From: an uncultured Bacteroidia bacterium
GTDB taxonomy: Bacteria; Bacteroidota; Bacteroidia; Bacteroidales; Prolixibacteraceae
NCBI GenBank assembly: GCA_963810555.1
Contig: CAWENX010000022.1
Span: 54,929 to 118,928 of the forward strand
DNA: 64,000 nt
Direction of reading: 5' to 3'
Part shown: piece after piece, positions 1 through 55,247 of the stretch
How the letters are laid out: every line of letters begins with the position of its first letter
Numbering within the stretch: the first letter of the stretch is position 1
Translations under genes and position numbers: made by a program
Notes under the pieces: generated by a model
The model's input: only the letters and a program-made list of their open reading frames with translations
Database searches by the model: none
What the model was told of the DNA's origin: nothing

Positions 1-279
1 AATTAAATTTACATGTGATTGATTGTCAATTGTTAATGATCAATTCTCAATTTTCTCTCGCGCTTGCAAAACTTGCAAAACTTGCAAAACTTGTTTTTTC
101 TTGTTAACAAGATTAACAAGTGAATCGCAAGTAAATTCAAATACAATTAAATTTACATGTGATTGATTGTCAATTGTTAATGATCAATTCTCAATTTTCT
201 CTCGCGCTTGCAAAACTTGCAAAACTTGTTTGTTCTTGTATACAAGATTAAACAAGCGAATTGCAAGTAAATTCAAAAT
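1..279. repeat. Tandem direct duplication of about 140 bp (copy A 1-144, copy B 145-279)
   Basis: Both copies begin AATTAAATTTACATGTGATTGATTGTCAATTGTTAATGATCAATTCTCAATTTTCTCTCGCGCTTGCAAAACTTGCAAAA. Copy A has 3 CTTGCAAAA units (63-89) and copy B has 2 (207-224). A 12-bp palindrome is CTTGTTAACAAG at 100-111 and CTTGTATACAAG at 235-246. Confidence 0.9.
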
Positions 280-325
280 TTTTGCCTATACTATTGCAGC
301 ATGTTTAATTTTTAAATATGCTGTT

Positions 326-877
326 ATGAAAAATTCTTTAAATGAATCGGTTTTAAACGGGGCTGTTGCCCTGAACGGTGTCCTTGGCAAATTTATCTGC
401 CGCATGTCTTCTCTTGTCTCTTCATCAAAGCCGGTATCGGCTGAGTTGAACGAAAACGAATGGTTTACTCATCACCAGGCCCTGGCTGATTATCTTCACT
501 GCAGTGTCCGTACAGTGAAAATCTACAAAAAACGGGGCGACATTCCCTTTATCATGGTCAACGGCCGTTCCTGGTCTAAAAAATCCGACGTCGAAAGGGC
601 GATTGAATTGAATCCGTCGCTTAACGCTCTTTTCAACGCGAAAGCCAGACCCCTGCGCGACCCGATGATGACGATCCGCAAAATTGTGAAAGTTAACCGG
701 AACTGGTCGTTCCTCTTTGTCTGGTTCCAGGGATTCCGCTTCCAGATCTACATCCCCAACTCCCTTCTTGAAAACGAGCTTATTGTGGATGACTGCATCA
801 AAAGCGCTGTCGCTTATCAGCACAGTATCAAACCCTTCAGGTATACGCCCGATTTCATCACCAAAATCCTGAATTAA
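326..877 (+). CDS. Helix-turn-helix DNA-binding protein (excisionase/AlpA/MerR-like HTH_17 type)
   Basis: The segment FTHHQALADYLHCSVRTVKIYKKRGDIPFIMVNGRSWSKKSDVERAIE fits the HTH_17 pattern common on Bacteroidota mobile elements. The listed ORF start at 167 is a TTG inside the tandem repeat, so the ATG at 326 is preferred. Confidence 0.6.
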   Translation: MKNSLNESVLNGAVALNGVLGKFICRMSSLVSSSKPVSAELNENEWFTHHQALADYLHCSVRTVKIYKKRGDIPFIMVNGRSWSKKSDVERAIELNPSLNALFNAKARPLRDPMMTIRKIVKVNRNWSFLFVWFQGFRFQIYIPNSLLENELIVDDCIKSAVAYQHSIKPFRYTPDFITKILN

Positions 878-884
878 CCATTCC

Positions 885-962
885 CGTAGGGGCGACCCTT
901 GCGGTCGCCCTATAACGGTCATCCCGACCTGAAATAGGGCGACCGCAAGGGTCGCCCGTACA
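885..962. repeat. Two inverted copies of a GC-rich palindromic unit
   Basis: CGTAGGGGCGACCCTTGCGGTCGCCCTATA (885-914) and AATAGGGCGACCGCAAGGGTCGCCCGTACA (933-962) are reverse complements of each other, and each folds into a hairpin. They lie between a stop codon and the next start. Confidence 0.85.
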
Positions 963-997
963 AATTGTCAATTGTCAATTATCAATTATCAATTGTT
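962..997. repeat. Low-complexity CAATTGTCAATT/ATCAATT stutter repeat abutting the start codon
   Basis: AAATTGTCAATTGTCAATTATCAATTATCAATTGTT lies directly before the ATG at 998. The same word family occurs at 20-50, 165-195, 3826-3840, 4513-4544 and 4641-4666. Confidence 0.85.
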
Positions 998-2896
998 ATG
1001 AATTACATCGAAATCATCCCCGAAGAATGCTCTTATTTTCATTCTCCGATATCTAATACCATCCCTTATTCCGTTCTGACTCTTTCGGAAATAGCAGACA
1101 AAATACGTTCCGGTACGCTAAAATCAGTGACCGACAAAATCCGCTCCGGTCAGTCGGATAAAAAAGAGGCTTTGCCTTACTTTACCCCTTCAGGTGTCTT
1201 TACCTCCCGCAACGATAATGATATTGTTTCTTATTCAGCCATCGTTGGCGTTGACCTTGACGATGTGGATATTAACCTGTCATCATTATTATTTAATGAC
1301 AAATTTCTTAAACCCTGTTTTGTCTTTATCAGTCCTTCCGGCAACGGCATCAAGCTGTTTGTCCGGGTTAAAAATGCGGATGCCTCTTTTCACAAAGATT
1401 ATTTTAACGCGGTGTCACTCTGGCTTTTTAAACAGTATAAGCTTCCCTGCGATCCTTCTTGCGTCAATATTTCCCGTGCCTGTTTTCTTTGTCATGACCC
1501 GAAAGCCTTTTATTCAGATTCAAAGTTCATTGATTCGGAAAGCCTTTTAAGCGTTATTCCGCCTAAACCGCCCGAACAGCCCGAATTCCTTTCCTACTTC
1601 AAAAAGCTCTACAGCTACTTTAATTATGAGCCGGAATTCAAAAAACATGAAGCCAATAAGCTTAATTATTGCCGGGCAATTCATGATCATGCGGTTAATG
1701 CCCTTCTAACCGCCGGATGGACGCAAACCGGTATCTTTTTTACAAGGCCGGGAACAGGCCACCCCAACAGCAAACATGCCACTTTCTCCGTACCACCGAA
1801 TTGCAAAATATGGGTCTTTTACAACTTCTCAACCAAAGCGGCTCCTTTTCTTCCAAATAAAGGCTACACCGATGTCCAGGTTATCTCCTTGCTCGAATTT
1901 GACGGTGATTATTCAAAATGTGCCGAATACCTCTCCTTCAAATACGATTCTCAGATACTGACCGATTGGGGCCGAGACGCGTCACGCAACGAGAGAGACG
2001 CGTCACACAAAGAGAGAGACGCGATAAATCGCGTCTCTACAGATCCCTTGGACAACTATTTTAACCGCCGTGATTTCAAAACAGTTATTTCCGAAGGCAT
2101 TCAATGCGAAGAGCGCCGCCGCATTGTCGGTTCATTCCTTTACGAGGATACCATCGCTCTTCTTTTTTCACGCACGAATTACGGCAAATCCATGCTGGCC
2201 CTGCAGTTTGGCTGCGCCGCTGCTACCGGTACCGACTTCGATTCCTGTGAAGCATTTAAAAATGAGTGTGAACCGATGAAAACGTTAATGATCGACCTGG
2301 AGCTTGATCACAAAACAATCGCGAAACGTCACAGGCTTTTTTTGGATCACCCTCATCCTTATGCTTCCAATTTCATCTTTCTTCATGAAAAACTGGAAAA
2401 CAAAGTCCTGATTGGTTTCGATCTGCTTGAAAAAATAGAGTCTCTGGCCTCGCGCGAGAAACCAAAGCTGCTGATCATCGACAACATTTCAAAACTCCTG
2501 CCCGACGCTGTCCGTCCTGAAGTGGCCACAATGGTGATCACCATTTTAAACCGCATCCGGTACAACACCGGCTGTTCTATCCTTGTCATCGGCCATACCA
2601 CCAAAGGTAATCCCAAATGTGCCATCCAGCCCAACGATTATTTCGGCTCTTCGATGATCCAGAACTTTTTCAGCGAACTGTTCTACCTGGATAAAACAAA
2701 GGATGACAACTTTTTCCTTTGCAATGTCAAGTCAAAAGACAAAGAGAGCTATGAAACCACCGTTCCTGTCCTTTCGCGTGGTGATCATTCCAGACTGGGT
2801 GTCGGATTTTCATTCTGTTATCTCTCTTCGATTGCAGATATCCAGCTCCCTTATTTCTTGAACAACCTAAAGTCCCACGGGCGAGGAATCTTTTAG
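998..2896 (+). CDS. Fused primase-helicase: N-terminal AEP-type primase (BT4734/VirE_N-like) plus C-terminal RecA/DnaB-like (AAA_25-type) NTPase
   Basis: N-terminal motifs: VGVDLDDVD (acidic motif I) and FISPSGNGIKLFVRV (motif II-like). C-terminal motifs: Walker A SRTNYGKS, Walker B LLIIDNISKL, and VIGHTTKG. The ATG at 998 is preferred over the TTG at 965, which lies inside the repeat. Confidence 0.8.
   Translation: MNYIEIIPEECSYFHSPISNTIPYSVLTLSEIADKIRSGTLKSVTDKIRSGQSDKKEALPYFTPSGVFTSRNDNDIVSYSAIVGVDLDDVDINLSSLLFNDKFLKPCFVFISPSGNGIKLFVRVKNADASFHKDYFNAVSLWLFKQYKLPCDPSCVNISRACFLCHDPKAFYSDSKFIDSESLLSVIPPKPPEQPEFLSYFKKLYSYFNYEPEFKKHEANKLNYCRAIHDHAVNALLTAGWTQTGIFFTRPGTGHPNSKHATFSVPPNCKIWVFYNFSTKAAPFLPNKGYTDVQVISLLEFDGDYSKCAEYLSFKYDSQILTDWGRDASRNERDASHKERDAINRVSTDPLDNYFNRRDFKTVISEGIQCEERRRIVGSFLYEDTIALLFSRTNYGKSMLALQFGCAAATGTDFDSCEAFKNECEPMKTLMIDLELDHKTIAKRHRLFLDHPHPYASNFIFLHEKLENKVLIGFDLLEKIESLASREKPKLLIIDNISKLLPDAVRPEVATMVITILNRIRYNTGCSILVIGHTTKGNPKCAIQPNDYFGSSMIQNFFSELFYLDKTKDDNFFLCNVKSKDKESYETTVPVLSRGDHSRLGVGFSFCYLSSIADIQLPYFLNNLKSHGRGIF
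1974..2045. repeat. Three in-frame 21-nt units ending in a complete GC hairpin (hairpin family copy H1)
   Basis: GAGACGCG starts at 1974, 1995 and 2016, a 21-nt period. These encode RDASRNE / RDASHKE / RDAINRV. The third unit forms AGAGACGCGAT-AAA-TCGCGTCTCT (2013-2040). The repeat sits in the linker between the primase and helicase domains. Confidence 0.85.
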
Positions 2897-3359: not shown

Positions 3360-3683
3360 ATGGACGAAATATTTGATGTTATCCGTGCTTTCAATCACTT
3401 AAAAGATCAGGTTGAAACCCTTAATATCCGCCTGGACCGGCTTATAAAAAATCCCTCTGTTTTATTGACTAAGCGCATTGTTGATGAACAGGCCGCAGCC
3501 TCCTTGCTTAATCTCTCTGTTCGTGAACTTCAGCGAATCCGTAAAGAAGGCAAAATTCAATATATTGTTCATAAACGTCGGATTAATTACTCATTAAAAG
3601 CTATCAATCAATATATTGAGAAACATACTTGTTCTCCTTCTGAACCCTTCGACACGACAAAACACGCCAATACACGACAATAG
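3360..3683 (+). CDS. Helix-turn-helix DNA-binding protein (HTH_17/excisionase-like)
   Basis: AAASLLNLSVRELQRIRKEGKIQYIVHKRRINYSLKAINQYIEKH fits the same HTH pattern as 326-877. Confidence 0.6.
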   Translation: MDEIFDVIRAFNHLKDQVETLNIRLDRLIKNPSVLLTKRIVDEQAAASLLNLSVRELQRIRKEGKIQYIVHKRRINYSLKAINQYIEKHTCSPSEPFDTTKHANTRQ

Positions 3684-3862: not shown

Positions 3863-4510
3863 ATGGGTACAATTAAACAAGGTATTCTTGGCGGGTTTTC
3901 CGGTAAAGTAGGTTCCGTGATCGGCGGTGTCTGGAAAGGCATCTCCTACATGCGCGGGATTGCTTTAAGCTATACCGATGCCAAATCGGATGCTCAGCTT
4001 GCTCACCGTCAGAAATTTGCCGTTGTTGGTCATTTCCTTCAGCCGCTCTCTGAATTTCTTCAGGAAAGCTTCAGGAATTATGCCGTCCGTATGACCGGTA
4101 TAAACGCCGCGTTCAAATACAATTTCGCCAATGCCGTTACCGGCACTTATCCGAACCAGGCCATTGATTATCCCAATGCCCGCGTGGCCCAGGGTAATCT
4201 GCCGGCTCCTTTGAATGCGGTCGCTTCATCTACCGTTGCCGGGACCGTTAAATTCGACTGGGACGACAACTCCGGGGAACTGGGCGCCGATGCTGCCGAT
4301 GAAACGATGATTGTTATTTACAATCCGGTTCAGAACCAGGCAGTAAACATCTCCGGTCTGGCGGAACGTGCGGACGGAACGCAAACGGTAACCGTTCCCG
4401 CTTCATTCAGCGGCGATCTGGTTCAGTGTTATCTTGCTTTTAAGCAAAATCCTGACAACGGAACCGAAATTTCCAACAGCGCCTTCGCCGGTGCCGTTAC
4501 CGTGGCGTAG
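3863..4510 (+). CDS. Hypothetical protein. The N-terminus resembles the Bacteroidota DUF6266 family from memory; function unknown.
   Basis: A clean 215-aa ORF. The N-terminal GILGGFSGKVGSVIGGVWKGISYMRG is glycine-rich and the C-terminal half looks beta-rich. The DUF6266 assignment is recalled, not searched. Confidence 0.55.
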   Translation: MGTIKQGILGGFSGKVGSVIGGVWKGISYMRGIALSYTDAKSDAQLAHRQKFAVVGHFLQPLSEFLQESFRNYAVRMTGINAAFKYNFANAVTGTYPNQAIDYPNARVAQGNLPAPLNAVASSTVAGTVKFDWDDNSGELGADAADETMIVIYNPVQNQAVNISGLAERADGTQTVTVPASFSGDLVQCYLAFKQNPDNGTEISNSAFAGAVTVA

Positions 4511-4825: not shown

Positions 4826-5110
4826 ATGAAAACTTTAAAACTCATTCTTATTCTGACTGCGATTTTCCTTTTGTTTTTTGCAGGTTGTGTGGTCAACATC
4901 ATTGGCGATCAATCAGCCGCATGTGCAGACGCGATGAATCGCGTCTCTACAGATCAGCCTTCAACCTTAAAACTGATCGCTCTGGCAGCGCTTGCCGTCT
5001 ACGAAGCTGTCGTCAGGATTGTTCCTTCCGTCGGCGACTACTCCGCCGTCTCCTGGATCATCAAATTCCTGAAAAAGGTCTCCGATACCCTCAATATCAA
5101 ATCAAGCTAA
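4826..5110 (+). CDS. Small lipoprotein/membrane protein (possible lysis accessory protein)
   Basis: A 94-aa ORF with an N-terminal signal/TM segment and lipobox-like FFAGC, plus a second hydrophobic segment LKLIALAALAVYEAVVRIV. It carries hairpin repeat H2 in frame between the two segments. Confidence 0.5.
   Translation: MKTLKLILILTAIFLLFFAGCVVNIIGDQSAACADAMNRVSTDQPSTLKLIALAALAVYEAVVRIVPSVGDYSAVSWIIKFLKKVSDTLNIKSS
4925..4955. repeat. GC hairpin family copy H2, in frame inside a CDS
   Basis: GCAGACGCGATGAATCGCGTCTCTACAGATC. This is 29 nt nearly identical to 2017-2045 and encodes ADAMNRVSTD (compare RDAINRVSTD). Confidence 0.9.
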
Positions 5111-5374: not shown

Positions 5375-6061
5375 ATGCGCTCAATCTGGAATCCCTCATT
5401 TTTAATCGCCGGTATTGAAATACCGGTTCAACTTATTCCGGCCGTTACGAAATCGAAAATCTCTTTTGAAACGGTCGACTCCCGTGACATGGCTAAAATC
5501 AAATATATCAAAACCAACGAATTGACCAATAAGCCTGTCCCTCTTCAATATATCGGCAAAGCCTATAATCATGACGGCTTTATTCAGCTCATTTCCCAGG
5601 AGCTTTACGACTCCTGTCTGCCGCCTGTCTCTAACCAGGTTATCTTTGATTATTTTATCCAGGCCTCTGATCTTCCCTTTGCCCATGTCGACTCTTTTTA
5701 TAACGTCTTGCCTCAGTTTGGCGAGGAGTTAAATTATGCTTATGCACTCAAAATGCTCAAAGATCTGGATGTGATTGGCATTGGTCAGGCCACTTTTATG
5801 AACTGCTCAAATGTATTTGCCCTTCATCAGAAAGACAATCATCTGGTGGTTTACAAGCTTCGTTTTTGTGAACAGCTGCTCTCTCCCGATCCGGTGGCTC
5901 TGCCGTCTTTGCCGCCTGAGGACGACGTTGTCATGCTGGCTTTAAAAGACTTTGTCCTGGATAATCTGCTTCCGTTTGACCTTTCGGGGTTTAAGGACAC
6001 TTTTAATGAAAATTTCATCGAAGCGATCTCCGACACCCTCAATATCACCAAAAGCGGATGA
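5375..6061 (+). CDS. ku: Ku-like DNA end-binding protein (divergent)
   Basis: It is colinear with bacterial Ku. MRSIWNPSFLIAGIEIPVQLIPAV..ISF......IKY matches the Ku N-terminus MRAIW.GSI.FGLV.IPV.L..A...I.F......I.Y. The mid region Y.VLP....L.YAYALKML......IG.ATF and a C-terminal helical tail are also consistent. Length is 228 aa. Confidence 0.7.
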   Translation: MRSIWNPSFLIAGIEIPVQLIPAVTKSKISFETVDSRDMAKIKYIKTNELTNKPVPLQYIGKAYNHDGFIQLISQELYDSCLPPVSNQVIFDYFIQASDLPFAHVDSFYNVLPQFGEELNYAYALKMLKDLDVIGIGQATFMNCSNVFALHQKDNHLVVYKLRFCEQLLSPDPVALPSLPPEDDVVMLALKDFVLDNLLPFDLSGFKDTFNENFIEAISDTLNITKSG

Positions 6062-6093
6062 TCAACGGCAAGGATTACCGCGCAGCGGTTCAA

Positions 6094-6230
6094 CTATTGT
6101 AGATAATAACGCACCCATTTTTCAATTCCCCGTAGGGGATACACAATAACGGTCATTAAATTGTTTAACACCTACGGTGTAACAAATGGATTGGAAATCA
6201 TTTATCTACAATAGTTTATGCCCTACGGGC
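6094..6230. other. Two interleaved inverted-repeat pairs (pseudoknot-like order)
   Basis: CTATTGTAGATAA (6094-6106) pairs with TTATCTACAATAG (6202-6214). CCCGTAGGGG (6129-6138) pairs with CCCTACGGG (6221-6229). The order is A, B, A', B'. Confidence 0.6.
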
Positions 6231-6385
6231 AAAAAAACTTCAAATTCATACCATAAGACAAAGAATGCTCACCCAAAAAACCTATCAATGACGTAAAGTT
6301 AAATTTTGGAATGCTACTCCACAGGCAAATGAGCTTTTTTTAATCATCAATCGGCAATCATCAATTATATTCTTAATTCTTAATT

Positions 6386-6832
6386 ATGCTGTTCTTATCC
6401 ATTCATCGAGGTTCTCAAAAACTCCTTTCGCCTCATTTTAAAGAGTACGAATTCTTCAGCAGGTGTCCTGACTATAAAAAAAATGAACATCCTCTGGCTC
6501 AGCCTTTGGTCAGGGCCGCTGAAATAATCCGGGAATTTATGAATGAACCGGTTTACATTACAAGCACCTGGCGAACGGCAGAATGTAATAAAATCTCCGG
6601 CGGCGCTCCCGATTCGTATCATCTGTCCGGCAAAGCGGTTGACATGGTCTGTCCGTTGAAAATGAAAATATTAAATGATGCGGTGGCACAAAGAGGCTAT
6701 CTCTATCACCTGTTACGGGTCGCCGGTATCAATGGATTTGGCTTAAATGACCGTTTTCTGCATATCGACTGCCGTTCGTACGGCTATATCTCCGATAAGG
6801 ACTACGGCTCATATACCTTGTGGTACTATTGA
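6386..6832 (+). CDS. Peptidase M15 family (zinc D-Ala-D-Ala carboxypeptidase-like) cell-wall hydrolase, probable endolysin
   Basis: Motifs SYHLSGKAVDM (the SxHxxGxAxD zinc/active-site motif) and FLHIDCR (distal His-Asp). The 148-aa size is typical of phage M15_3 lysins. Confidence 0.75.
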   Translation: MLFLSIHRGSQKLLSPHFKEYEFFSRCPDYKKNEHPLAQPLVRAAEIIREFMNEPVYITSTWRTAECNKISGGAPDSYHLSGKAVDMVCPLKMKILNDAVAQRGYLYHLLRVAGINGFGLNDRFLHIDCRSYGYISDKDYGSYTLWYY

Positions 6833-7085: not shown

Positions 7086-7292
7086 ATGAAAAAATTAAAT
7101 CAAATTCAGTTTCAATCTTACATTCAAGACTTTAATGTTAAAGATTTAGCTAAATGCTGCGGCCTTATCATTCTGAAAATCCTGCAGAAAGATGATTCTC
7201 CTGATTCTCTGGCATATTTAAAATATTGGCTTTGCAGGGTCGCTGGTCAGGCAAAACGTTTTATCAACAAAGAAAAACGTAAATTGACGTAG
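7086..7292 (+). CDS. Hypothetical small protein
   Basis: A 68-aa ORF bracketed by matching hairpins CCCGATAGCTATCGGG (7050-7065) and CCCGATATCTATCGG (7299-7313). No recognisable motif. Confidence 0.35.
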   Translation: MKKLNQIQFQSYIQDFNVKDLAKCCGLIILKILQKDDSPDSLAYLKYWLCRVAGQAKRFINKEKRKLT

Positions 7293-7451: not shown

Positions 7452-9521
7452 ATGAATACAAATTCTGCCAGTTCCGGGAAATTAGATCAGCTCTGTATAA
7501 ATACAATCCGGTTTCTTTCAGTCGATGCGGTACAGAAAGCCAACAGCGGGCATCCCGGCCTGCCGTTAGGGGCTGCCCCAATGGCCTATGTTCTGTGGAC
7601 GCGTTTCCTGCGGCATAATCCTGAAAATCCTAAATGGTTTAACAGAGACCGGTTTATTTTGTCGGCAGGCCATGGTTCGATGCTGTTGTACAGTCTGCTT
7701 CACTTAACCGGATATGATCTTTCGCTGGATCAGATTAAAGAATTCAGACAGTGGGGAAGTTTGACGCCAGGCCATCCCGAACGGGGACTCACCCCAGGGG
7801 TTGAAACAACTACCGGCCCCCTGGGCCAGGGATTCGGGAACGGAGTAGGGATGGCAATTGCCGAGGCCTACCTTTCAGCCCGTTACAACAGACCAAATTT
7901 TGATATCATTAGCCATTTCACATATGGTTTGGTAAGTGACGGCGATCTGATGGAAGGGGTGGGAAGCGAAGCTGCATCGCTTGCCGGACACCTGAAGCTT
8001 GGCAAACTGATTTATTTGTACGACAACAATCACATCACCCTTTCAGCTTCCACACAATTAGCCTTCACAGAAGATGTTGCGGAACGTTTTGAAGCCTACG
8101 GATGGCATACGCAATCGGTTAAGGATGGGAATGATATTAAAGCCATTGAAAATGCGATCCACCATGCACAAAAAGAAACGGACCGCCCCTCCCTTATCAT
8201 AATCAGGACACATATCGGATACGGATCTCCCAACAAACAGGATACTTTTGAAGCACATGGTTCCCCCCTTGGGATTGAAGAGGTAAAACTGACGAAACAA
8301 AATCTGGGCTGGCCTGAAGAACCTCCCTTTTACATCCCGGAGGAAGCAGAATCTCATTTTCGGAAAGCTGTTGAAACGGGACGTCGTGAAGAGAATGAAT
8401 GGAATTCGCTTTTCAGTGATTATGAGAAGGAATATCCCCTTCAGGCTAACGAGTTGAAAATGCTTATAAAAGATGAACTGCTTCCTGATCTTAGATCCAT
8501 TTTACCACATTTCCCGGCTGATACGAAAGGAATAGCCACCCGTAAAGCATCATTTAAAACATTAGAAGCTGTCAACCAGCATCTTCCCGGATTGATTGGC
8601 GGATCTGCCGATTTAAATCCCTCCACCTACACTGAACTGAAAGGAGAAGGGGATTTCGATAATCCTTCAAGGGCGACAGGTGATATGCAGGGTTCAGCCG
8701 GCGGGGGATGGAGTTACAGGGGCCGAAATATTCAGTTTGGTGTCAGGGAACATGCTATGGGCGCAATCCTAAACGGATTAGCGGCACATGGCGGCATCAC
8801 GCCTTATGGGGCTACTTTTCTGACTTTCTCGGATTATATGCGGCCAACGATCCGTCTTGCTTCATTGATGAGGCTGCATGTTATTTATGTTTTTACCCAT
8901 GACAGTGTGGCTATGGGAGAGGATGGACCCACTCATCAGCCAATCGAACATCTTGCCAGTTTGAGGGCAATACCGGGATTAACAGTTATCAGACCCTGCG
9001 ATGCCAATGAGACGGCCATTTCATGGCTTTATGCTTTGGAAAAGAAGACGGGACCGGTAGCTCTTATTTTTAGCCGTCAAAATATTCCGGTTCTCGATCG
9101 AACGGAATTTGCCCCTGAAGACGGACTTCTTCGCGGAGCCTATATTTTGGACAAAGAACCCGAAGAAAAACCCGAGTTAGTTCTTATCGCGAGCGGATCT
9201 GAAGTCTCGTTGATCGTATCAGCAAAACAAAAACTCCAGGAGAAAAAAATCTCTGTTCAGCTTGTTTCTATGCCGAGCTGGGAATTATTTGACGATCAGC
9301 CACGGGCTTACAGGGATCTTGTATTGCCGCCGGGGGTTCCGCGGCTTGCTGTTGAAGCAGGTTCAACGCAAGGGTGGAAGAAATATGTAAGTGACGTGGG
9401 AGATGTAATCGGAATTGATCATTTTGGCGCTTCAGCTCCCGGACCGATTCTTCTTCGTGAATTTGGCTTTACAGTAGAAGAGATTTGTTCAACTGCCACA
9501 ACTTTATTGGAAAAGATTTAA
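7452..9521 (+). CDS. tkt: Transketolase
   Basis: Classic N-terminus SGHPG.PLG.A......LW..FL..NP.NP.W.NRDRF.LS.GHGS.LLY..LHL.GY, and a full-length 689-aa protein. Confidence 0.95.
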
Positions 9522-13965: not shown

Positions 13966-14340
13966 AGACCAGAGAAAGGAGACAGGAGACAGGAGAACGG
14001 AAAAGGGAGAAAGCAGAACAAAAGATGAGAAAATAAAATAAGATTAATCATTCATCTATTCCGGAAATATTATTTCCGGATTTGTGATTAAACTGATTAC
14101 ATTAAAAACAAGCAAGAAATTGCATATTTATACAGTTAATATGTATATTTATTCAGTTGATCCGATTGGTTCAATACTAAATCAAACATAACTCAAACAT
14201 AAATCAAACACGAGTGAGGTACTGACCTGTCTGGAATGCTTTTTTGCATAAATATTCATTTTAGATTAACATTTTAAATGTCATCTTTTCATAAATTAGC
14301 ATGTTTTACTGTAACACCAGAATGCTGAAGTAAAAATACC

Positions 14341-17431: not shown

Positions 17432-17436
17432 AGAAA

Positions 17437-17600
17437 GTGATCAGTAAACAGTAATCAGTGAAAGTGAACAGTGCTTTGTGCTATAAAGAATCATGAATCA
17501 CGAATCACGAATTATGAGTTATGAATTAGACTATTAGCTAATCAGGCTTTAATTTTTACTGTTTACCATTTACTGTTCACTGATTACTGATTACTGAATT
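17437..17600. repeat. Stutter palindrome (CAGTAAAC/CAGTGAA arms)
   Basis: GTGATCAGTAAACAGTAATCAGTGAAAGTGAACAGTG (17437-17473) is complementary to TACTGTTTACCATTTACTGTTCACTGATTACTGATTACTG (17556-17600). The centre holds a GAATCACGAATCACGAATTATGAGTTATGAATT stutter. Confidence 0.85.
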
Positions 17601-17615
17601 TATGATTACTGATTT

Positions 17616-18491
17616 ATGAAGCGGTTCATTATTTTTATTTCCTGGATAATCCTTACAGTATTATTTATTGAAAGCTGTAAACAAGCCCAGATGGTTGTTG
17701 CTCCAAAAAAAATCAGACATCTAAGTGTAGGAAGAGTAACCCGTTTAGTCAGGGAAAATGCATTGAGATTTGAGACTTTAACCATCAGAAAGGCAAGCAT
17801 TGAACTAAATAATAATGGAAAGGCCTCTTCTTTCAGAGCTGCCCTTAAAATTCGCCGTGACAGTATTATCCAGGTTTCTGCCCAAAAGATATCGATCCCT
17901 GTTGGAAAAATTGAACTTAATACTGATTCTTTCAGGATGGTCGATTATATGAATAAAGAAAATATCTATGGTTCATTGGATTACATCAGTAATCTGATCG
18001 GCATGGATATTGATTATAACATTCTTCAGTCAATTCTGACCGATCAGATTTTTTCACTGCATCAGGATACTAAAGAGAATGATTTTAAGGATTTTATTTG
18101 TCAAATAGAAGATGATCTTTACAAAATAACTACAATACGCGACCGCAAATTGAGAAAACTTACAAGAAATGAAAGCCGGTTCGAACGCTATCGAAACAGG
18201 AAAGAAGATGAAACTCTTATAAAACAGGATATTTATATAGATCCGGATAGCTTTGTTGTACGCAAATTAGTTTTGGATGATATGGCTTCCAATCGCTTAG
18301 CTCAATTTGAATATTCAAAATTCGAGAAAGTTGATAACCAATGGTTTCCCGGAATGATCACTATGCATTTCCAGGGTGATAAGAATATGTATCTTTCAAT
18401 GGAATTTTCCAGAATAAGTCTGAACGATGAAAACAATTTCGGATTCTCCATTGCTCCAAAATACAAAAAAATAGTACTCAGTGATGAGTGA
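17616..18491 (+). CDS. DUF4292-like lipoprotein
   Basis: Lipobox FIESC and a 291-aa protein, in the conserved position between the TPR protein and the M23 peptidase. The family name is recalled from synteny, not searched. Confidence 0.6.
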   Translation: MKRFIIFISWIILTVLFIESCKQAQMVVAPKKIRHLSVGRVTRLVRENALRFETLTIRKASIELNNNGKASSFRAALKIRRDSIIQVSAQKISIPVGKIELNTDSFRMVDYMNKENIYGSLDYISNLIGMDIDYNILQSILTDQIFSLHQDTKENDFKDFICQIEDDLYKITTIRDRKLRKLTRNESRFERYRNRKEDETLIKQDIYIDPDSFVVRKLVLDDMASNRLAQFEYSKFEKVDNQWFPGMITMHFQGDKNMYLSMEFSRISLNDENNFGFSIAPKYKKIVLSDE

Positions 18492-20362: not shown

Positions 20363-21590
20363 ATGAGTATGACTTTAAATGATAAAATTCATGAATTTAT
20401 CCTGAAAGGAATAAATGAAACCCCCTTCGAACCCAAACCAGACCCTTTCTGGCAAAACCTGAAAGAAACAGGTACTGAGCTGTGGCTGGACACGGGAGAT
20501 ATTGAAGAAGCAAAAAAAATCTGGTCTGCCGAGATGACGGCTCTTACAACAAATAACACTTTGCTTAACAAGGAAATACAAAAAGGTATTTATGATTTTT
20601 TTATCAGGGAGGCTCACAAAATTGTAAAACAACTCCCACTTAATGAGCAGGTAATCGAAATAGCTTTTATTCTCAATGCACGGCACGGCCTTAGATTGGC
20701 AAAAATATTCGGCGGATCTGTGAGCGTAGAACTTCATACTGACACCGCAAATGACTTTGATGCCATTGTTGATTATGGTAAACGTTATTTTAACATCTCT
20801 CCGGAACACTTTTTGGTAAAAGTCCCTTATACGGCAACCGGTTTGCTGGGTGCAAGGAAATTACGTCAGCTTGGAGTCAGGATCAACCTTACCCTCGAAT
20901 TCAGTGCAAGGCAGAATGTTATGGTCTGCTGCAATTTCTCAGCCTAACTATTTAAATGTTTTCCTTGGGCGTCTGGGTGCCTATGTTAAAGACAATAAGC
21001 TCGGTGAACCCGAAGGTGTGGGTGAAAGAGCCGTTCTCTCTTCTCAAAAATGGGTCAGGGAATTAACATCTGAAAATAAGGAACCTTCGAAACTCATCGC
21101 AGCCAGTTTAAGAAATGCTCAACAATTGGAAAATCTGGCCGGAGTCAACGTATTTACCATGCCCGTTAAGGTCGCAGAGGAAGGAAAATCTAAATTAAGC
21201 GGAAAATTCAAATCAGCACTTAATAACATTTATCCGGTAAACTTTAATGATTCTGCCAAAGGAATAAATCTTGAAAAATTATGGGAAGTAACTCCCGGAG
21301 AAGTGTCTCTTGCAAAAAATCTTGCGGCGAATCTGCCCAAAAACGGTGATGAACTGATCAGACAAGCCCGCGATGCCGGATATGGAGATATGTTCCCCGC
21401 TTTAAGCCAACAGGACTATCAAACCATTTGGGATGATGGCAAGATCCCGAAGCATGAAAAATGGGATGAACGTATAAGAAAAGGTGAACTGGCAGTCGAT
21501 ACACTTCTGAATCTTGCAGGACTTGCAAGTTTTGCAGCCGATCAGGCCCAATTGGACGAAAGAATAAAAAAAGTAATCAGTAATCAGTGA
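20363..21590 (+). pseudogene. Transaldolase-family gene (long form) with a single +1 frameshift
   Basis: ELWLDTGD...TTNNTL...LVKVPYT..GL.....L...G..INLTLEFSARQNVMV in frame 2 continues as AAISQPNYLNVFLGRLGAYV in frame 3. An apparent extra T lies at about 20927 (ATG GTC T GCT GCA). Confidence 0.75.
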
Positions 21591-24508: not shown

Positions 24509-24627
24509 CACCTCTTGTAATTAAAGAATGAAGGAATTAAAGAATAATATTCTTTAATTTTTAATTCCTTAATTATTTATCATTTTTTCATTTTTCTCAT
24601 TGTGTGTTAACTTAATTATCTTTCCTG

Positions 24628-35184: not shown

Positions 35185-35276
35185 TTTCTGTAATGTTTCT
35201 GTAATGTTTGTGTAATATTCGTGTAATAAATAATTACAAAAAGATTACATAAATCTTACACAAATATTACGTAAAC
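35185..35276. repeat. Stutter palindrome (TGTAAT arms) upstream of a CAZyme gene
   Basis: TTTCTGTAATGTTTCTGTAATGTTTGTGTAATATTCGTGTAAT is complementary to ATTACAAAAAGATTACATAAATCTTACACAAATATTACGTAAAC. The centre is near 35230, 150 nt upstream of the ATG at 35426. Confidence 0.85.
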
Positions 35277-51065: not shown

Positions 51066-51383
51066 ATGATTAAAAACAAGAAAATATTACTAAAAATCAA
51101 ACAGTTGGTTAATCAGGCAGAACCAACTGCAACTGTTATTTTGTATGGTTCACAGGCAAGAGGACAGAGTAATAAACAATCTGATATTGATATTCTCATC
51201 CTTGTTGATCAGGATAAAATTACCTATACGGAAGAACAAAGAATAAAATATCCTTTATATGATCTGGAATTTGAAACCGGCAAAGTAATCAGTCCTGTTA
51301 TTTTCAGCCGTAAAGATTGGGAAACACGGCATAATATTACACCATTCTACAAGAATATTAAAAAAGAAGGTGTTTTTTTATGA
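51066..51383 (+). CDS. Minimal nucleotidyltransferase (MNT), HEPN-partner antitoxin
   Basis: ILYGSQARGQ....SDIDILILVD is the GS-x-DxD nucleotidyltransferase motif. Its stop overlaps the HEPN start. Confidence 0.85.
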   Translation: MIKNKKILLKIKQLVNQAEPTATVILYGSQARGQSNKQSDIDILILVDQDKITYTEEQRIKYPLYDLEFETGKVISPVIFSRKDWETRHNITPFYKNIKKEGVFL

Positions 51384-51778
51384 AAGAAGGAACAAGTGAT
51401 TTAATAAAATACAGGATAAGCCGTTCACTGGAAACACTGATTGAGGCTGAAACCATGATAAAGAACGGATTCTGGAATGCAGCGGTAAACAGGATTTACT
51501 ATTCCTGCTATTATGTTGTAAGCGGCTTGTTGTTAAAAAAATCCATTGAAACAAATTCTCACAAAGGACTGAGACAGATGTTCGGTCTCCATTTTGTACA
51601 AACAGGGGCAGTGACCAAAGAAGACGGACGATTTTTCTCAGACCTTTATGACAGAAGGCAAACCGGTGATTATGAGGATTTTGTTTTATATGAAGAGGAA
51701 ACTGTGCTCATTCTTTACGACCAGGCTAAAAATTTTATTAGCAGAATTGTTGAATTGTTATACAAAAATGATATATAG
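51380..51778 (+). CDS. HEPN domain protein (toxin of the MNT/HEPN pair)
   Basis: Helical and 132 aa long, with AVNRIYYSCYY and an R-x4-6-(D/H)-like RRQTGDY motif. Confidence 0.8.
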   Translation: MKEGTSDLIKYRISRSLETLIEAETMIKNGFWNAAVNRIYYSCYYVVSGLLLKKSIETNSHKGLRQMFGLHFVQTGAVTKEDGRFFSDLYDRRQTGDYEDFVLYEEETVLILYDQAKNFISRIVELLYKNDI

Positions 51779-55154: not shown

Positions 55155-55247
55155 GTTTATTCGTAGATTATTCGTAGTTTATTCGTATATCATTCGTATA
55201 ATATACGAATAAATAACGAATAACCTACGTATAATGTATGAATAAAT
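55155..55247. repeat. Stutter palindrome (TTATTCGTA / TACGAATAA arms) upstream of a CAZyme gene
   Basis: GTTTATTCGTAGATTATTCGTAGTTTATTCGTATATCATTCGTATA is complementary to ATATACGAATAAATAACGAATAACCTACGTATAATGTATGAATAAAT. The centre is near 55200. Confidence 0.85.

What the first reader, a model, noticed from the sequence alone, without database searches (positions are those of the whole stretch)
5375..6061. Orphan, divergent Ku homolog next to a lysin on a mobile island, with no LigD in the window
The 228-aa protein is colinear with bacterial Ku: MRSIW...IPVQL...ISF...IKY at the N-terminus, a central beta-barrel region and a C-terminal helical tail. Several near-invariant Ku positions are substituted (FGLV becomes IAGI). 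Bacterial Ku normally operates with LigD in NHEJ. On phages, Ku-like proteins such as Mu Gam and the mycobacteriophage Ku homologs protect or recircularise linear genome ends. A Ku gene between a membrane protein and an endolysin suggests the island has a linear dsDNA stage and uses Ku for end protection or anti-nuclease defence.
Basis: partly seen in the sequence, partly recalled or inferred. Interest (0 to 1): 0.7.

Follow-up and report, generated by a model that had tools for sequence, protein, structure and literature searches.

The report
Tail-less Ku protein on mobile island
The gene encodes a genuine Ku-type DNA-end-binding ring protein, but from a rare stripped-down branch that lacks the parts ordinary bacterial Ku uses to recruit its repair ligase; it travels on a small self-replicating element of Bacteroidota-like bacteria, so it probably binds DNA ends for the element's own purposes and not for standard break repair.

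Summary
ORF 5375-6061 (228 aa) is a real Ku-domain protein: Pfam Ku scores 57 bits against a cutoff of 25, and the AF2 model matches solved bacterial Ku at TM 0.82-0.89. The window has no LigD. It is not a canonical NHEJ Ku. It scores below NCBI's Ku_bact cutoff (87 against 150) and belongs to a rare monophyletic clade of about 20-25 sequence clusters, all 218-234 aa. The clade lacks the whole C-terminal region that binds LigD. It has also lost the basic residues of the outer "arm" DNA-binding motif, while the ring contacts K43 and K62 remain. Canonical Ku in Bacteroidota loci is followed by LigD in 11 of 12 cases; the short Ku never is. Instead it follows a DUF6266 plus small-lipoprotein gene pair in 8 of 9 contexts. 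In three independent copies it lies in a conserved module: HTH, primase-helicase, HTH_17, DUF6266, lipoprotein, Ku, M15 peptidase. Its dN/dS is 0.19. The best reading is a LigD-independent ring that binds DNA ends for the element, similar in architecture to Mu Gam. A linear DNA stage is not shown. The element is absent from phage collections, and no integrase was seen. This is a new variant of a known kind, of moderate interest.

The parts
5375..6061 (+). Short (tail-less) Ku-domain protein, 228 aa
   Evidence: Pfam Ku 57.4 bits. PDB fold match TM 0.82-0.89. TIGR02772 86.6 bits, below the 150 cutoff. Member of a monophyletic short clade. dN/dS 0.19 against L001.
6062..6235 (+). Conserved structured non-coding element directly 3' of Ku; it travels with the gene into L001
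   Evidence: 97.7 % identical to L001, against 82.9 % at third codon positions of the adjacent CDS; P = 5e-10. 15-bp long-range stem 6092-6106/6202-6216 with nested hairpins, z = -3.2. No Rfam hit. Function unknown.
3863..4510 (+). DUF6266 protein (215 aa), the conserved upstream partner of the short Ku
   Evidence: Pfam DUF6266 197.5 bits. More than 1000 relatives, many 60-85 % identical. Upstream of the short Ku in the window, L002, L003, L018 and L024 and on the P0158 contig. Fold unresolved (pLDDT 56); the C-terminal half looks Fn3-like.
4826..5110 (+). 94-aa lipoprotein-like membrane protein (signal peptide with FFAGC lipobox, then one hydrophobic helix); always paired with DUF6266
   Evidence: Homologues follow DUF6266 in L002, L003, L018, L019-L023 and L024 at 53-77 % identity. 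The lipobox was read from the sequence.
6386..6832 (+). Peptidase_M15_3, an endolysin-like cell-wall hydrolase
   Evidence: Pfam 47.6 bits; PHROG 894 endolysin E 2.9e-17. Follows Ku in the window, L002 and L024.
7086..7292 (+). 68-aa ORF, probably the last gene of the element
   Evidence: 40 % identical homologue at the same position in L002. Transketolase (chromosomal) starts at 7452.
965..2896 (+). Primase-helicase (BT4734-like AEP primase N-domain plus AAA_25)
   Evidence: Pfam 86.6 and 65.5 bits. PADLOC PrimPol model E 2.4e-26. Conserved in L002 and L024.
3360..3683 (+). HTH_17 (excisionase/AlpA-like) small regulator
   Evidence: Pfam HTH_17 26.9 bits, at the cutoff. Conserved in L002 and L024.
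326..877 (+). HTH protein. The likely real start is the ATG at 326; the listed ORF begins at a TTG at 167.
   Evidence: Weak HTH_17 hit. 28 % identical to the HTH_17 protein that precedes the primase in L024.
1..288 (.). 144-nt tandem duplication at the window edge. The element runs off the left end of the window.
   Evidence: 1-84 equals 145-228 at 100 %. A comparable 136-nt x3 tandem array lies inside the L024 element.

Best explanation
The gene encodes a minimal Ku: a homodimeric ring that threads onto double-stranded DNA ends but works without LigD. It is an accessory gene of a small (about 9-10 kb) self-replicating element found in Bacteroidota-like genomes.

Shown:
- It has the Ku fold.
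- It belongs to a separate tail-less clade under purifying selection.
- It keeps the basic ring segment, including the motif-1 contacts K43 and K62.
- It has lost the C-terminal LigD-binding and basic regions, and the basic residues of the outer 'arm' DNA-binding motif.
- It is never next to LigD. It lies downstream of a DUF6266 plus lipoprotein pair, and in the full element beside a primase-helicase and an M15 peptidase.

Inferred:
- The ring still loads on DNA ends, with a smaller footprint and without end-bridging or ligase recruitment.
- Its role would then resemble Mu Gam. It would cap ends of element DNA (or of DNA the element encounters) and shield them from host exonucleases such as RecBCD/AddAB, or otherwise control how ends are processed. 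It would not rejoin them.
For: Ku identity.

Separate clade:
- The exhaustive HMMER search shows about 20 representatives of 218-234 aa at 111-271 bits, then a gap to canonical Ku of 250-340 aa at 95 bits or less.
- The clade is monophyletic in an NJ tree, with 22 % mean identity to canonical Ku against 37 % within each group.

No C-terminal region:
- Short-clade proteins end 0-5 aa beyond the core. Canonical Ku continue for a median of 48 aa with about 15 K/R and a conserved D..L..S motif.
- The TIGR02772 match stops at profile position 224 of 259 and scores 86.6 against a cutoff of 150.
- McGovern 2016 (PMC4889933) found a C-terminal region in all 689 prokaryotic Ku surveyed. [quoted passage not shown]

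DNA contacts, using B. subtilis Ku-DNA contacts from PMC12784961 mapped:
- Motif 1 (inner ring): K62 is kept in 100 % of the clade and K43 in 87 %.
- Motif 2 (arms): K6, K89, R109 and R171 columns are 0-4 % basic in the short clade, against 51-62 % in canonical Ku. The R144 column is 39 % against 77 %.
- The window protein reads N6, Q19, N87, S107, M142 and L169 at these positions.
- Segment charge: ring hairpins have 7 K/R in the short clade against 8 in canonical Ku; barrel/arm 7 against 14 (p = 2e-13); C-helices 3 against 8.

Context:
- Canonical Bacteroidota Ku is followed by a three-domain LigD in 11 of 12 loci.
- The short Ku has no LigD in the window, L001, L002, L018 or L024.
- The module is conserved in three copies.

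Selection: dN/dS 0.19 at dS 0.27.

Precedent: Mu Gam is a core-only Ku relative that protects linear DNA from nucleases (PMC1378119).
Against: - No linear DNA stage, terminal repeats, terminase or protein-primed polymerase was found for the element.
- Five of the six basic side chains of the arm motif are missing in the window protein. In B. subtilis Ku the R126A/R161A/R188A triple mutant binds DNA poorly, so DNA binding could be weak or altered. R32, the second charged motif-1 contact, is Glu here.
- Ring formation was not tested, because no dimer prediction was available.
- There is no sequence or fold match to Mu Gam itself.
- The tight linkage to DUF6266 and a lipoprotein is not explained by an end-protection role.
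- A 90 % identical copy stands alone in L001 without the element, so the function cannot strictly depend on the element.
Confidence: 0.45

Rival explanations
1. Re-purposed Ku ring. The protein keeps the fold but no longer acts mainly on DNA ends. It works together with DUF6266 and the small lipoprotein in an unknown, possibly envelope-associated or structural role of the element. It might be a scaffold, a nucleoprotein, or a binder of another ligand.
For: - DUF6266 (usually with the lipoprotein gene) lies upstream of the short Ku in 8 of 9 contexts, across the full depth of the clade at 35-90 % identity.
- Most arm DNA contacts are lost, and R32 is Glu.
- The protein is acidic (pI 4.7, only 17 K/R).
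- Ku is the fastest-evolving gene of the module, at 38 % identity against 49-68 % for the others.
Against: - The ring segment stays basic and K62 is invariant.
- DUF6266 plus the lipoprotein occur far more often without Ku: more than 1000 clusters against about 25. Ku is therefore an add-on and not an obligate partner.
- The L001 copy is conserved without either partner.
Confidence: 0.22
2. Conventional NHEJ with a LigD encoded elsewhere in the host genome, as in mycobacteriophages Omega and Corndog, whose Ku recruits host LigD to recircularise the genome.
For: - It is a true Ku homologue.
- Only 64 kb of the genome is visible, so a distant ligD cannot be excluded.
- Bacteroidota relatives do carry ku-ligD operons.
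- The use of host LigD by Ku-expressing phages Omega and Corndog is cited in PMC7719229.
Against: - The minimal C-terminal region needed for Ku-LigD interaction and ligation stimulation (PMC4889933; PMC9638933 abstract) is completely absent.
- The score is below the Ku_bact equivalog cutoff.
- There is no LigD in any of the sequenced short-Ku contexts.
- The phage Ku proteins that match structurally are 270-284 aa, so they are longer than this 228-aa protein.
Confidence: 0.12
3. Host-directed interference or defence cargo. The protein would either cap incoming phage DNA ends to block their circularisation or replication, or poison the host Ku by forming inactive heterodimers.
For: - It sits at the accessory end of a mobile element, next to the chromosomal junction.
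- NHEJ proteins can restrict phages at cos ends (PMC12848934).
- Phage end-binding proteins that antagonise RecBCD are known (PMC12407980 abstract).
Against: - It matches no PADLOC defence model.
- The published anti-phage effect needs LigD.
- There is no evidence that the host has a canonical Ku.
- The idea is purely inferential.
Confidence: 0.13
4. A decaying remnant of a Ku gene with no current function.
For: - Fragmentary or frameshifted copies exist in other genomes (P0007 at 126 aa, P0159 at 136 aa).
- DUF6266 and the lipoprotein gene are frameshifted next to an intact Ku in L018.
Against: - The ORF is intact in at least 20 diverged lineages of constant length.
- dN/dS is 0.19-0.22.
- The AF2 model is confident.
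Confidence: 0.03

Closest known systems
Bacterial NHEJ Ku (Pfam PF02735; NCBIfam TIGR02772; e.g. B. subtilis YkoV, M. tuberculosis Rv0937c)
   Same: - Same core fold, and colinear over about 220 residues (TM 0.82-0.89).
- Conserved W5, P17, V18, F94, Y109, P113 and Y121, and the ring contacts K43 and K62.
   Different: - No minimal C-terminal (LigD-binding) region and no basic extension.
- The arm DNA-binding motif has lost its basic residues.
- F-G-L-V is replaced by I-A-G-I.
- Below the equivalog cutoff, and only 22 % mean identity to canonical Ku.
- Never adjacent to LigD; located on a mobile element.
Bacteriophage Mu Gam (Pfam PF07352), a Ku-like end-binding protein
   Same: - Core-only architecture without a ligase-recruiting tail.
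- Carried by a mobile element.
- Works without LigD to bind ends and block nucleases (PMC1378119). This is the closest functional analogy.
   Different: - No detectable sequence match to the Gam family (it is not listed in the Pfam scan at E <= 1).
- No Gam-type hit in the PDB or BFVD fold searches.
- The protein is clearly derived from bacterial Ku.
- The element is not a transposable phage.
Mycobacteriophage Ku (clusters O and J: Corndog, Omega, Dylan; PHROG 4873)
   Same: A Ku homologue encoded by a mobile genetic entity. It matches the PHROG profile (E 1.4e-13) and the Dylan Ku fold (TM 0.80).
   Different: - The phage proteins are 270-284 aa and only 24-27 % identical.
- They act through host LigD.
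- The present element has no phage structural genes and is absent from the phage and IMG/VR collections.
Engineered B. subtilis Ku core (C-terminal truncations; McGovern 2016, and PDB 9vnq)
   Same: The same extent of polypeptide as the natural short clade. The truncated protein still dimerises, still threads on DNA, and no longer stimulates LigD (abstract and section headings of PMC4889933).
   Different: The laboratory truncation keeps the arm motif residues. The natural short clade has also lost those.

Membership tests
Ku domain superfamily (Pfam PF02735) | Profile HMM match above the curated gathering score | tested here: met
   57.4 bits against 25, E 2.4e-15, residues 13-170. L024 homologue: 62.4 bits.
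Ku domain superfamily (Pfam PF02735) | Ku beta-barrel plus ring-hairpin plus C-helical fold | tested here: met
   AF2 pLDDT 88. Foldseek TM 0.82-0.89 to 9vnq, 9i91 and 8v53, E down to 5e-17.
Ku domain superfamily (Pfam PF02735) | Dimer forming a closed ring around DNA | not testable with these tools
The monomer matches chains taken from DNA-bound homodimers, which is indirect support only.
Bacterial NHEJ Ku (NCBIfam TIGR02772 Ku_bact equivalog) | Score at or above the equivalog cutoff | tested here: not met
   86.6 bits against a cutoff of 150. The match ends at profile position 224 of 259.
Bacterial NHEJ Ku (NCBIfam TIGR02772 Ku_bact equivalog) | Conserved minimal C-terminal region (LigD interaction), usually followed by a basic extension | tested here: not met
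   Short clade: 0-5 aa beyond the core. Canonical Ku: median 48 aa with about 15 K/R and a D..L..S motif. Role of the region: PMC4889933.
Bacterial NHEJ Ku (NCBIfam TIGR02772 Ku_bact equivalog) | Genomic or functional partnership with LigD | tested here: not met
   No LigD domain in the window or in L001, L002, L018 or L024. Canonical Bacteroidota Ku has an adjacent LigD in 11 of 12 loci. The rest of the host genome was not visible.
Bacterial NHEJ Ku (NCBIfam TIGR02772 Ku_bact equivalog) | Both DNA-binding motifs seen in the B. subtilis Ku-DNA structure | tested here: inconclusive
   Motif 1: K43 and K62 are kept, and R32 is Glu. Motif 2: 5 of 6 basic side chains are replaced (N6, Q19, N87, S107, M142, L169), while R2, W5 and Y109 are kept. 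DNA binding itself was not measured.
Phage Mu Gam family (Pfam PF07352) | Sequence or fold match to Gam | tested here: not met
   Not among the Pfam hits at E <= 1. No Gam entry in the PDB profile search at E <= 10 or in the fold searches.
Phage-encoded Ku-like proteins (PHROG 4873) | Profile match | tested here: met
   E 1.4e-13, residues 1-222.
Phage-encoded Ku-like proteins (PHROG 4873) | Encoded in a phage genome | tested here: not met
   - No capsid, terminase, portal or tail genes in the three element copies.
- No relatives of Ku or DUF6266 in IMG/VR.
- In the phage records, the Ku matches only mycobacteriophage Ku at 24-27 % identity, and DUF6266 matches nothing.

The most novel reading that the evidence does not exclude
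The module DUF6266, small lipoprotein, tail-less Ku and M15 peptidase, together with a primase-helicase and two HTH proteins, could define an undescribed kind of small Bacteroidota element, for example a capsid-less or satellite-type virus or a vesicle-borne replicon. In it, a Ku ring would have been re-tooled as the element's own genome-end cap or DNA-handling protein. The gene with its conserved 174-nt structured 3' element would move as a discrete cassette between chromosomal sites.
Probability: 0.15. Interest if true: 0.8.

Novelty: new variant of a known kind. Interest (0 to 1): 0.55.

Why it matters
A survey of 689 prokaryotic Ku genes (PMC4889933) reported that every bacterial Ku carries a C-terminal region, and that this region recruits LigD. 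'Ku-only' genomes are rare, and about 90 % of them are in Firmicutes (PMC7719229).

This finding is a natural, selected Ku lineage that has dropped the tail and the outer DNA-binding motif, is never paired with LigD, and rides on a mobile element. That gives a test case for what a bare Ku ring does in bacteria.

It would be a second route, independent of Mu Gam, by which mobile elements reduce Ku to an end-binding core. It also gives a first functional lead for the widespread but uncharacterised DUF6266 family and its lipoprotein partner.

Tried and rejected
1. Source genome and left end of the island. Exact look-ups of the window Ku and of the 100 % identical DUF6266 (P0168) failed, as did look-ups of three other NCBI/ENA-sourced proteins. 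The integrase, att sites and the rest of the host genome could not be examined.
2. Phage origin. IMG/VR scans with Ku and DUF6266 patterns found nothing. Phage and plasmid BLAST found only distant actinophage or megaplasmid Ku, and no DUF6266.
3. Defence system. No PADLOC hit for Ku, DUF6266, the lipoprotein or M15.
4. DUF6266 fold. AF2 gave pLDDT 56; only a generic Fn3-like C-terminal half at E about 1e-3. This is not interpretable.
5. Cassette-boundary repeats. The 26-32-nt matches at gene borders and the shared leaders at first looked like cassette signatures. However, 7-11-nt micro-tandem repeats fill intergenic DNA across the whole window and in L024, so I rejected them as island-specific signals.
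6. Integrase in L024. The 355-aa ORF left of the module has no Pfam hit. There are no tRNA genes and no convincing flanking direct repeats.
7. Known RNA in the long intergenic gaps. No Rfam match at the gathering or E <= 0.1 thresholds.
8. Sigma-70 promoter and terminator scan. Not informative.
9. Integron attC reading of the 3' element. No R''/R' pairing was seen by eye, and no integron integrase is nearby. Not adopted.
Full report
1. THE OBSERVATION

An ATG-initiated ORF of 228 aa occupies exactly 5375-6061 on the + strand. It passes Pfam's curated Ku model (PF02735: 57.4 bits against a cutoff of 25, E 2.4e-15) and the PHROG 'Ku-like DNA end binding' profile (E 1.4e-13). It matches only bacterial Ku among PDB sequences (8v53/9i91 E 3e-11; 9vnq E 2.5e-7), colinear over residues 1-222. 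An AlphaFold2 model built on 19 sequences has mean pLDDT 88. It superposes on chains from the DNA-bound homodimers of B. subtilis and M. tuberculosis Ku at TM 0.82-0.89, with eukaryotic Ku70/80 further down the list. None of the 36 other ORFs of at least 120 aa in the window carries a LigD ligase, polymerase or phosphoesterase domain. tblastn with a Bacteroidota LigD and a canonical Ku finds no LigD and no second Ku.

2. NOT A CANONICAL NHEJ KU

Against NCBI's equivalog model Ku_bact (TIGR02772) the protein scores 86.6 bits where 150 is required, and the match stops at profile position 224 of 259. An exhaustive HMMER search of 1.84 billion representatives shows a bimodal picture. About 20 representatives of 218-234 aa score 111-271 bits. 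After a gap, ordinary Ku proteins of 250-340 aa score 95 bits or less. In an NJ tree of 23 short and 106 canonical sequences the short proteins form one clade with no canonical member inside. Mean identity is 37 % within each group and 22 % between them. The clade is rare: 7 and 22 clusters in two searches of 5.8 billion proteins.

3. WHAT THE CLADE HAS LOST AND KEPT

(a) C-terminus. Short-clade proteins end 0-5 residues after the last core helix. Canonical proteins continue for a median of 48 residues with about 15 Lys/Arg and a conserved D..L..S motif. McGovern et al. (PMC4889933) found a C-terminal region of 19-173 aa in all 689 prokaryotic Ku genes they surveyed. [quoted passage not shown] The M. 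tuberculosis C-terminus likewise binds LigD and stimulates ligation (PMC9638933, abstract).

(b) DNA contacts. [quoted passage not shown] Mutation of either motif markedly reduces DNA binding. The paper's numbering is the native numbering plus 17. Mapping these residues onto the alignment gives the following.
- Motif 1: K62 is kept in 100 % of the clade and K43 in 87 %. R32 is not conserved even in canonical Ku, and is Glu here.
- Motif 2: the K6, K89, R109 and R171 columns are basic in 51-62 % of canonical Ku and in 0-4 % of the short clade. The R144 column is basic in 77 % against 39 %.
- The window protein reads N6, Q19, N87, S107, M142 and L169. It keeps R2, W5 and Y109.

(c) Charge by segment. 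The ring-hairpin segment keeps its basic residues (median 7 against 8; the window protein has 8, net +4). The barrel/arm segment has half the canonical number (7 against 14; p = 2e-13). The C-helical segment has about a third (3 against 8).

So the loss is selective. The channel-forming part stays basic, while the outer DNA-binding surface and the ligase-recruiting arm are gone.

4. THE GENE IS FUNCTIONAL

dN/dS between the window gene and a 90 % identical copy (L001) is 0.19 at an unsaturated dS of 0.27, and 0.22 against L002. Length and start are constant across lineages that are only 24-59 % identical. Some genomes do carry broken copies (P0007, P0159).

5. GENOMIC CONTEXT

The window, L002 (an ENA contig) and L024 (an ENA bin) share the same gene order:
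- an HTH protein;
- a BT4734-like AEP primase fused or adjacent to an AAA_25 helicase;
- an HTH_17 protein;
- DUF6266;
- an 87-94-aa protein with a lipoprotein signal (FFAGC) and one hydrophobic helix;
- Ku;
- Peptidase_M15_3.

Amino-acid identity to the window runs from 28 % (the HTH protein in L024) to 77 %. Ku is the least conserved of the DUF6266-to-M15 genes, at 38 % between the window and L024. The DNA to the right of the module differs in each case: transketolase, a 624-aa reverse-strand gene, and a WD40 protein. The module is therefore mobile.

No integrase was seen. The window cuts the element on the left, and the 355-aa ORF at the left of the L024 copy has no Pfam match. No phage structural or packaging gene is present. 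Neither Ku nor DUF6266 has relatives in IMG/VR. DUF6266 has no match in 50,697 phage or 72,556 plasmid records. The only phage Ku matches are mycobacteriophage proteins at 24-27 % identity and 270-284 aa. No PADLOC defence model matches Ku, DUF6266 or the lipoprotein.

6. THE CONSERVED PARTNER IS DUF6266 PLUS THE LIPOPROTEIN, NOT LIGD

DUF6266 lies upstream of the short Ku in:
- the window, L002, L003 and L024;
- L018, where DUF6266 and the lipoprotein gene are frameshifted;
- the P0158 contig;
- two further contigs, judged from shared contig lengths: P0004 with P0183, and P0006 with P0209.

That is 8 of 9 contexts, spanning 35-90 % Ku identity. The exception is L001. By contrast, twelve canonical 256-258-aa Ku genes from Bacteroidota MAGs and metagenomes are followed within a few bases by a three-domain LigD in 11 cases. 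I checked representatives with Pfam; L007 has LigD split in two and L008 has Fpg instead.

DUF6266 is much more common than the short Ku. It has more than 1000 clusters, many 60-85 % identical, with dN/dS about 0.1. It also occurs with the lipoprotein alone in ordinary chromosomal settings (L019-L023). Ku is thus an accessory of that pair. The DUF6266 fold could not be resolved: pLDDT 56, with only an Fn3-like C-terminal half.

7. A SOLITARY COPY AND A CONSERVED 3' ELEMENT

In L001 only the Ku gene and its 3' flank are shared with the window, between unrelated genes (LysE and IMPDH). Homology starts about 8 nt before the ATG and ends near 6235. The 174 nt after the stop codon (6062-6235) are 97.7 % identical. 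The coding sequence is 91.3 % identical, and its third positions 82.9 % (binomial P = 5e-10). This stretch folds into a 15-bp long-range stem (6092-6106 with 6202-6216) with nested hairpins (z = -3.2). It matches no Rfam family. L001 has a partial tandem duplication at the junction of the ORF and this element.

Either the element is a selected structured RNA or DNA site that moves with the gene, or it is a more recent recombination tract. Two sequences cannot decide between these. The last ten residues of the window Ku (SDTLNITKSG) are identical to the C-terminus of the lipoprotein in L002 and L003. This points to past recombination between the 3' ends of the two genes.

8. MECHANISM

Shown: Ku fold; separate selected clade; no LigD-binding tail; arm motif lost; ring contacts and ring charge kept; element-borne; no LigD nearby.

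Inferred: the protein still forms a homodimeric ring that loads on dsDNA ends, but with a smaller footprint and without bridging or ligase recruitment. In practice that makes it an end cap. It matches the architecture of Mu Gam, which binds ends and protects linear DNA from nucleases (PMC1378119). It also matches the engineered B. subtilis Ku core, which still dimerises and threads but no longer stimulates LigD (PMC4889933). I put this reading at 0.45.

Rivals:
- A re-purposed ring working with DUF6266 and the lipoprotein: 0.22.
- Interference or defence cargo: 0.13.
- NHEJ with a distant host LigD: 0.12, disfavoured by the missing C-terminus.
- A non-functional remnant: 0.03, disfavoured by the selection analysis.

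9. COMPARISON AND NOVELTY

The protein is a member of the Ku domain superfamily: the HMM and fold tests are met, and the ring was not testable. It fails the tests for the bacterial NHEJ Ku equivalog on score, C-terminal region and LigD partnership. It is not a sequence or fold match to Mu Gam. It matches the phage Ku PHROG profile but is not phage-encoded.

I found no description of a tail-less, element-borne Ku clade in the searchable literature. Published surveys state that all prokaryotic Ku have a C-terminal region. They also state that Ku-only states are rare and about 90 % in Firmicutes, with no horizontally acquired chromosomal NHEJ detected.

I rate it a new variant of a known kind, with interest 0.55. 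It is a real and coherent deviation from textbook bacterial Ku with an unexplained gene partnership, but the Gam precedent limits the surprise, and function remains inferred.

10. LIMITS

- The host taxon is inferred (Bacteroidota-like) from the BT4734-like and DUF6266 families, the glycoside-hydrolase-rich window, and T9SS genes (PorV, Por_Secre_tail) next to one DUF6266 relative.
- The rest of the host genome, the island's left end and the dimer structure could not be examined.

Noticed in passing
window 2017-2040 and 4927-4950: A 24-nt palindrome, AGACGCGAT[A/G]AATCGCGTCTCTAC, lies in frame inside two island ORFs (the primase and the 94-aa lipoprotein) and is translated as (R)DA[I/M]NRVST. 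There are two copies in 64 kb where none is expected. The same peptide occurs in the lipoprotein of L002 and L003 but not of L024 or L019. It also occurs at two different positions in the Ku homologues P0004 and P0006. This looks like a small palindromic element that inserts in frame into coding sequence, as Rickettsia palindromic elements do.
   Followed up: partly
window 6062-6235; L001 10757-10945: The 174-nt non-coding element after the Ku stop codon is more conserved than the gene itself: 97.7 % against 82.9 % at third positions, P = 5e-10. It is predicted to be structured (z = -3.2) and has no Rfam match. L001 has a partial tandem duplication of its 5' junction.
   Followed up: partly
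whole window, e.g. 13972-14018, 17436-17619, 24519-24601, 35185-35275, 55155-55245; L024 4213-4390, 11145-11313, 12003-12670: Intergenic regions throughout this genome, and in the L024 genome, are built from tandem 7-11-nt units, often as two inverted blocks that could form long hairpins. TRF gives 78 rows for the 64 kb. This is a genome-wide trait and not an island feature. Its origin and role are unknown.
   Followed up: partly
window 6011-6061 against 5063-5110: The last ten residues of the window Ku (SDTLNITKSG) are identical to the C-terminus of the lipoprotein in L002 and L003. The DNA is 78 % similar to the 3' end of the window's own lipoprotein gene (D12). Other short Ku proteins end in ...AAVAA. 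This suggests a 3'-end exchange between neighbouring genes.
   Followed up: partly
window 3863-4510 plus 4826-5110; L019-L023: DUF6266 and the small lipoprotein form a highly conserved pair, with more than 1000 DUF6266 clusters and dN/dS about 0.1. The pair also occurs alone in chromosomal contexts, between an RND efflux operon and an acetyl-CoA hydrolase gene. The function is unknown, and there are no phage, plasmid or defence matches.
   Followed up: partly
window 1-288; L024 9278-9686: A 144-nt tandem duplication lies at the left edge of the window (1-84 equals 145-228 at 100 %), with internal CTTGCAAAA x3 repeats. A 136-nt x3 array lies inside the L024 element upstream of DUF6266. These may be iteron or origin-like regions.
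   Followed up: no
window 886-961: Two inverted copies of a GC-rich hairpin unit (GGGCGACCCTTGCGGTCGCCC) sit between the HTH gene and the primase gene; 28-nt arms, 96 % complementary (I6). The unit is REP-like.
   Followed up: no
window 1974-2023: A 21-nt tandem repeat (x2.4) inside the primase ORF lies directly upstream of the palindrome insertion. It encodes the repeated peptide RDASRNE/RDASHKE.
   Followed up: no
window 20363-20947 and 20850-21590: Transaldolase (TAL_FSA) is split into two overlapping ORFs that cover profile positions 1-148 and 150-261. This is a frameshift, a pseudogene or a sequencing error.
   Followed up: no
L002 3842-4192 (- strand); L019 2623-2988: A 23S_rRNA_IVP (four-helix-bundle) gene is inserted between the lipoprotein gene and Ku in L002. 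Another lies near the DUF6266 locus of L019.
   Followed up: no
window 51380-51778: A stand-alone HEPN-domain protein (Pfam 57.6 bits), possibly half of a HEPN/MNT toxin-antitoxin pair. The neighbouring small ORFs were not examined.
   Followed up: no
L003 (CAZSYK010000192.1): The 1,969-bp contig that carries DUF6266, the lipoprotein gene and Ku is binned to an 'uncultured Eubacteriales' MAG. All other contexts look Bacteroidota-like, so mis-binning of this short contig is likely.
   Followed up: no
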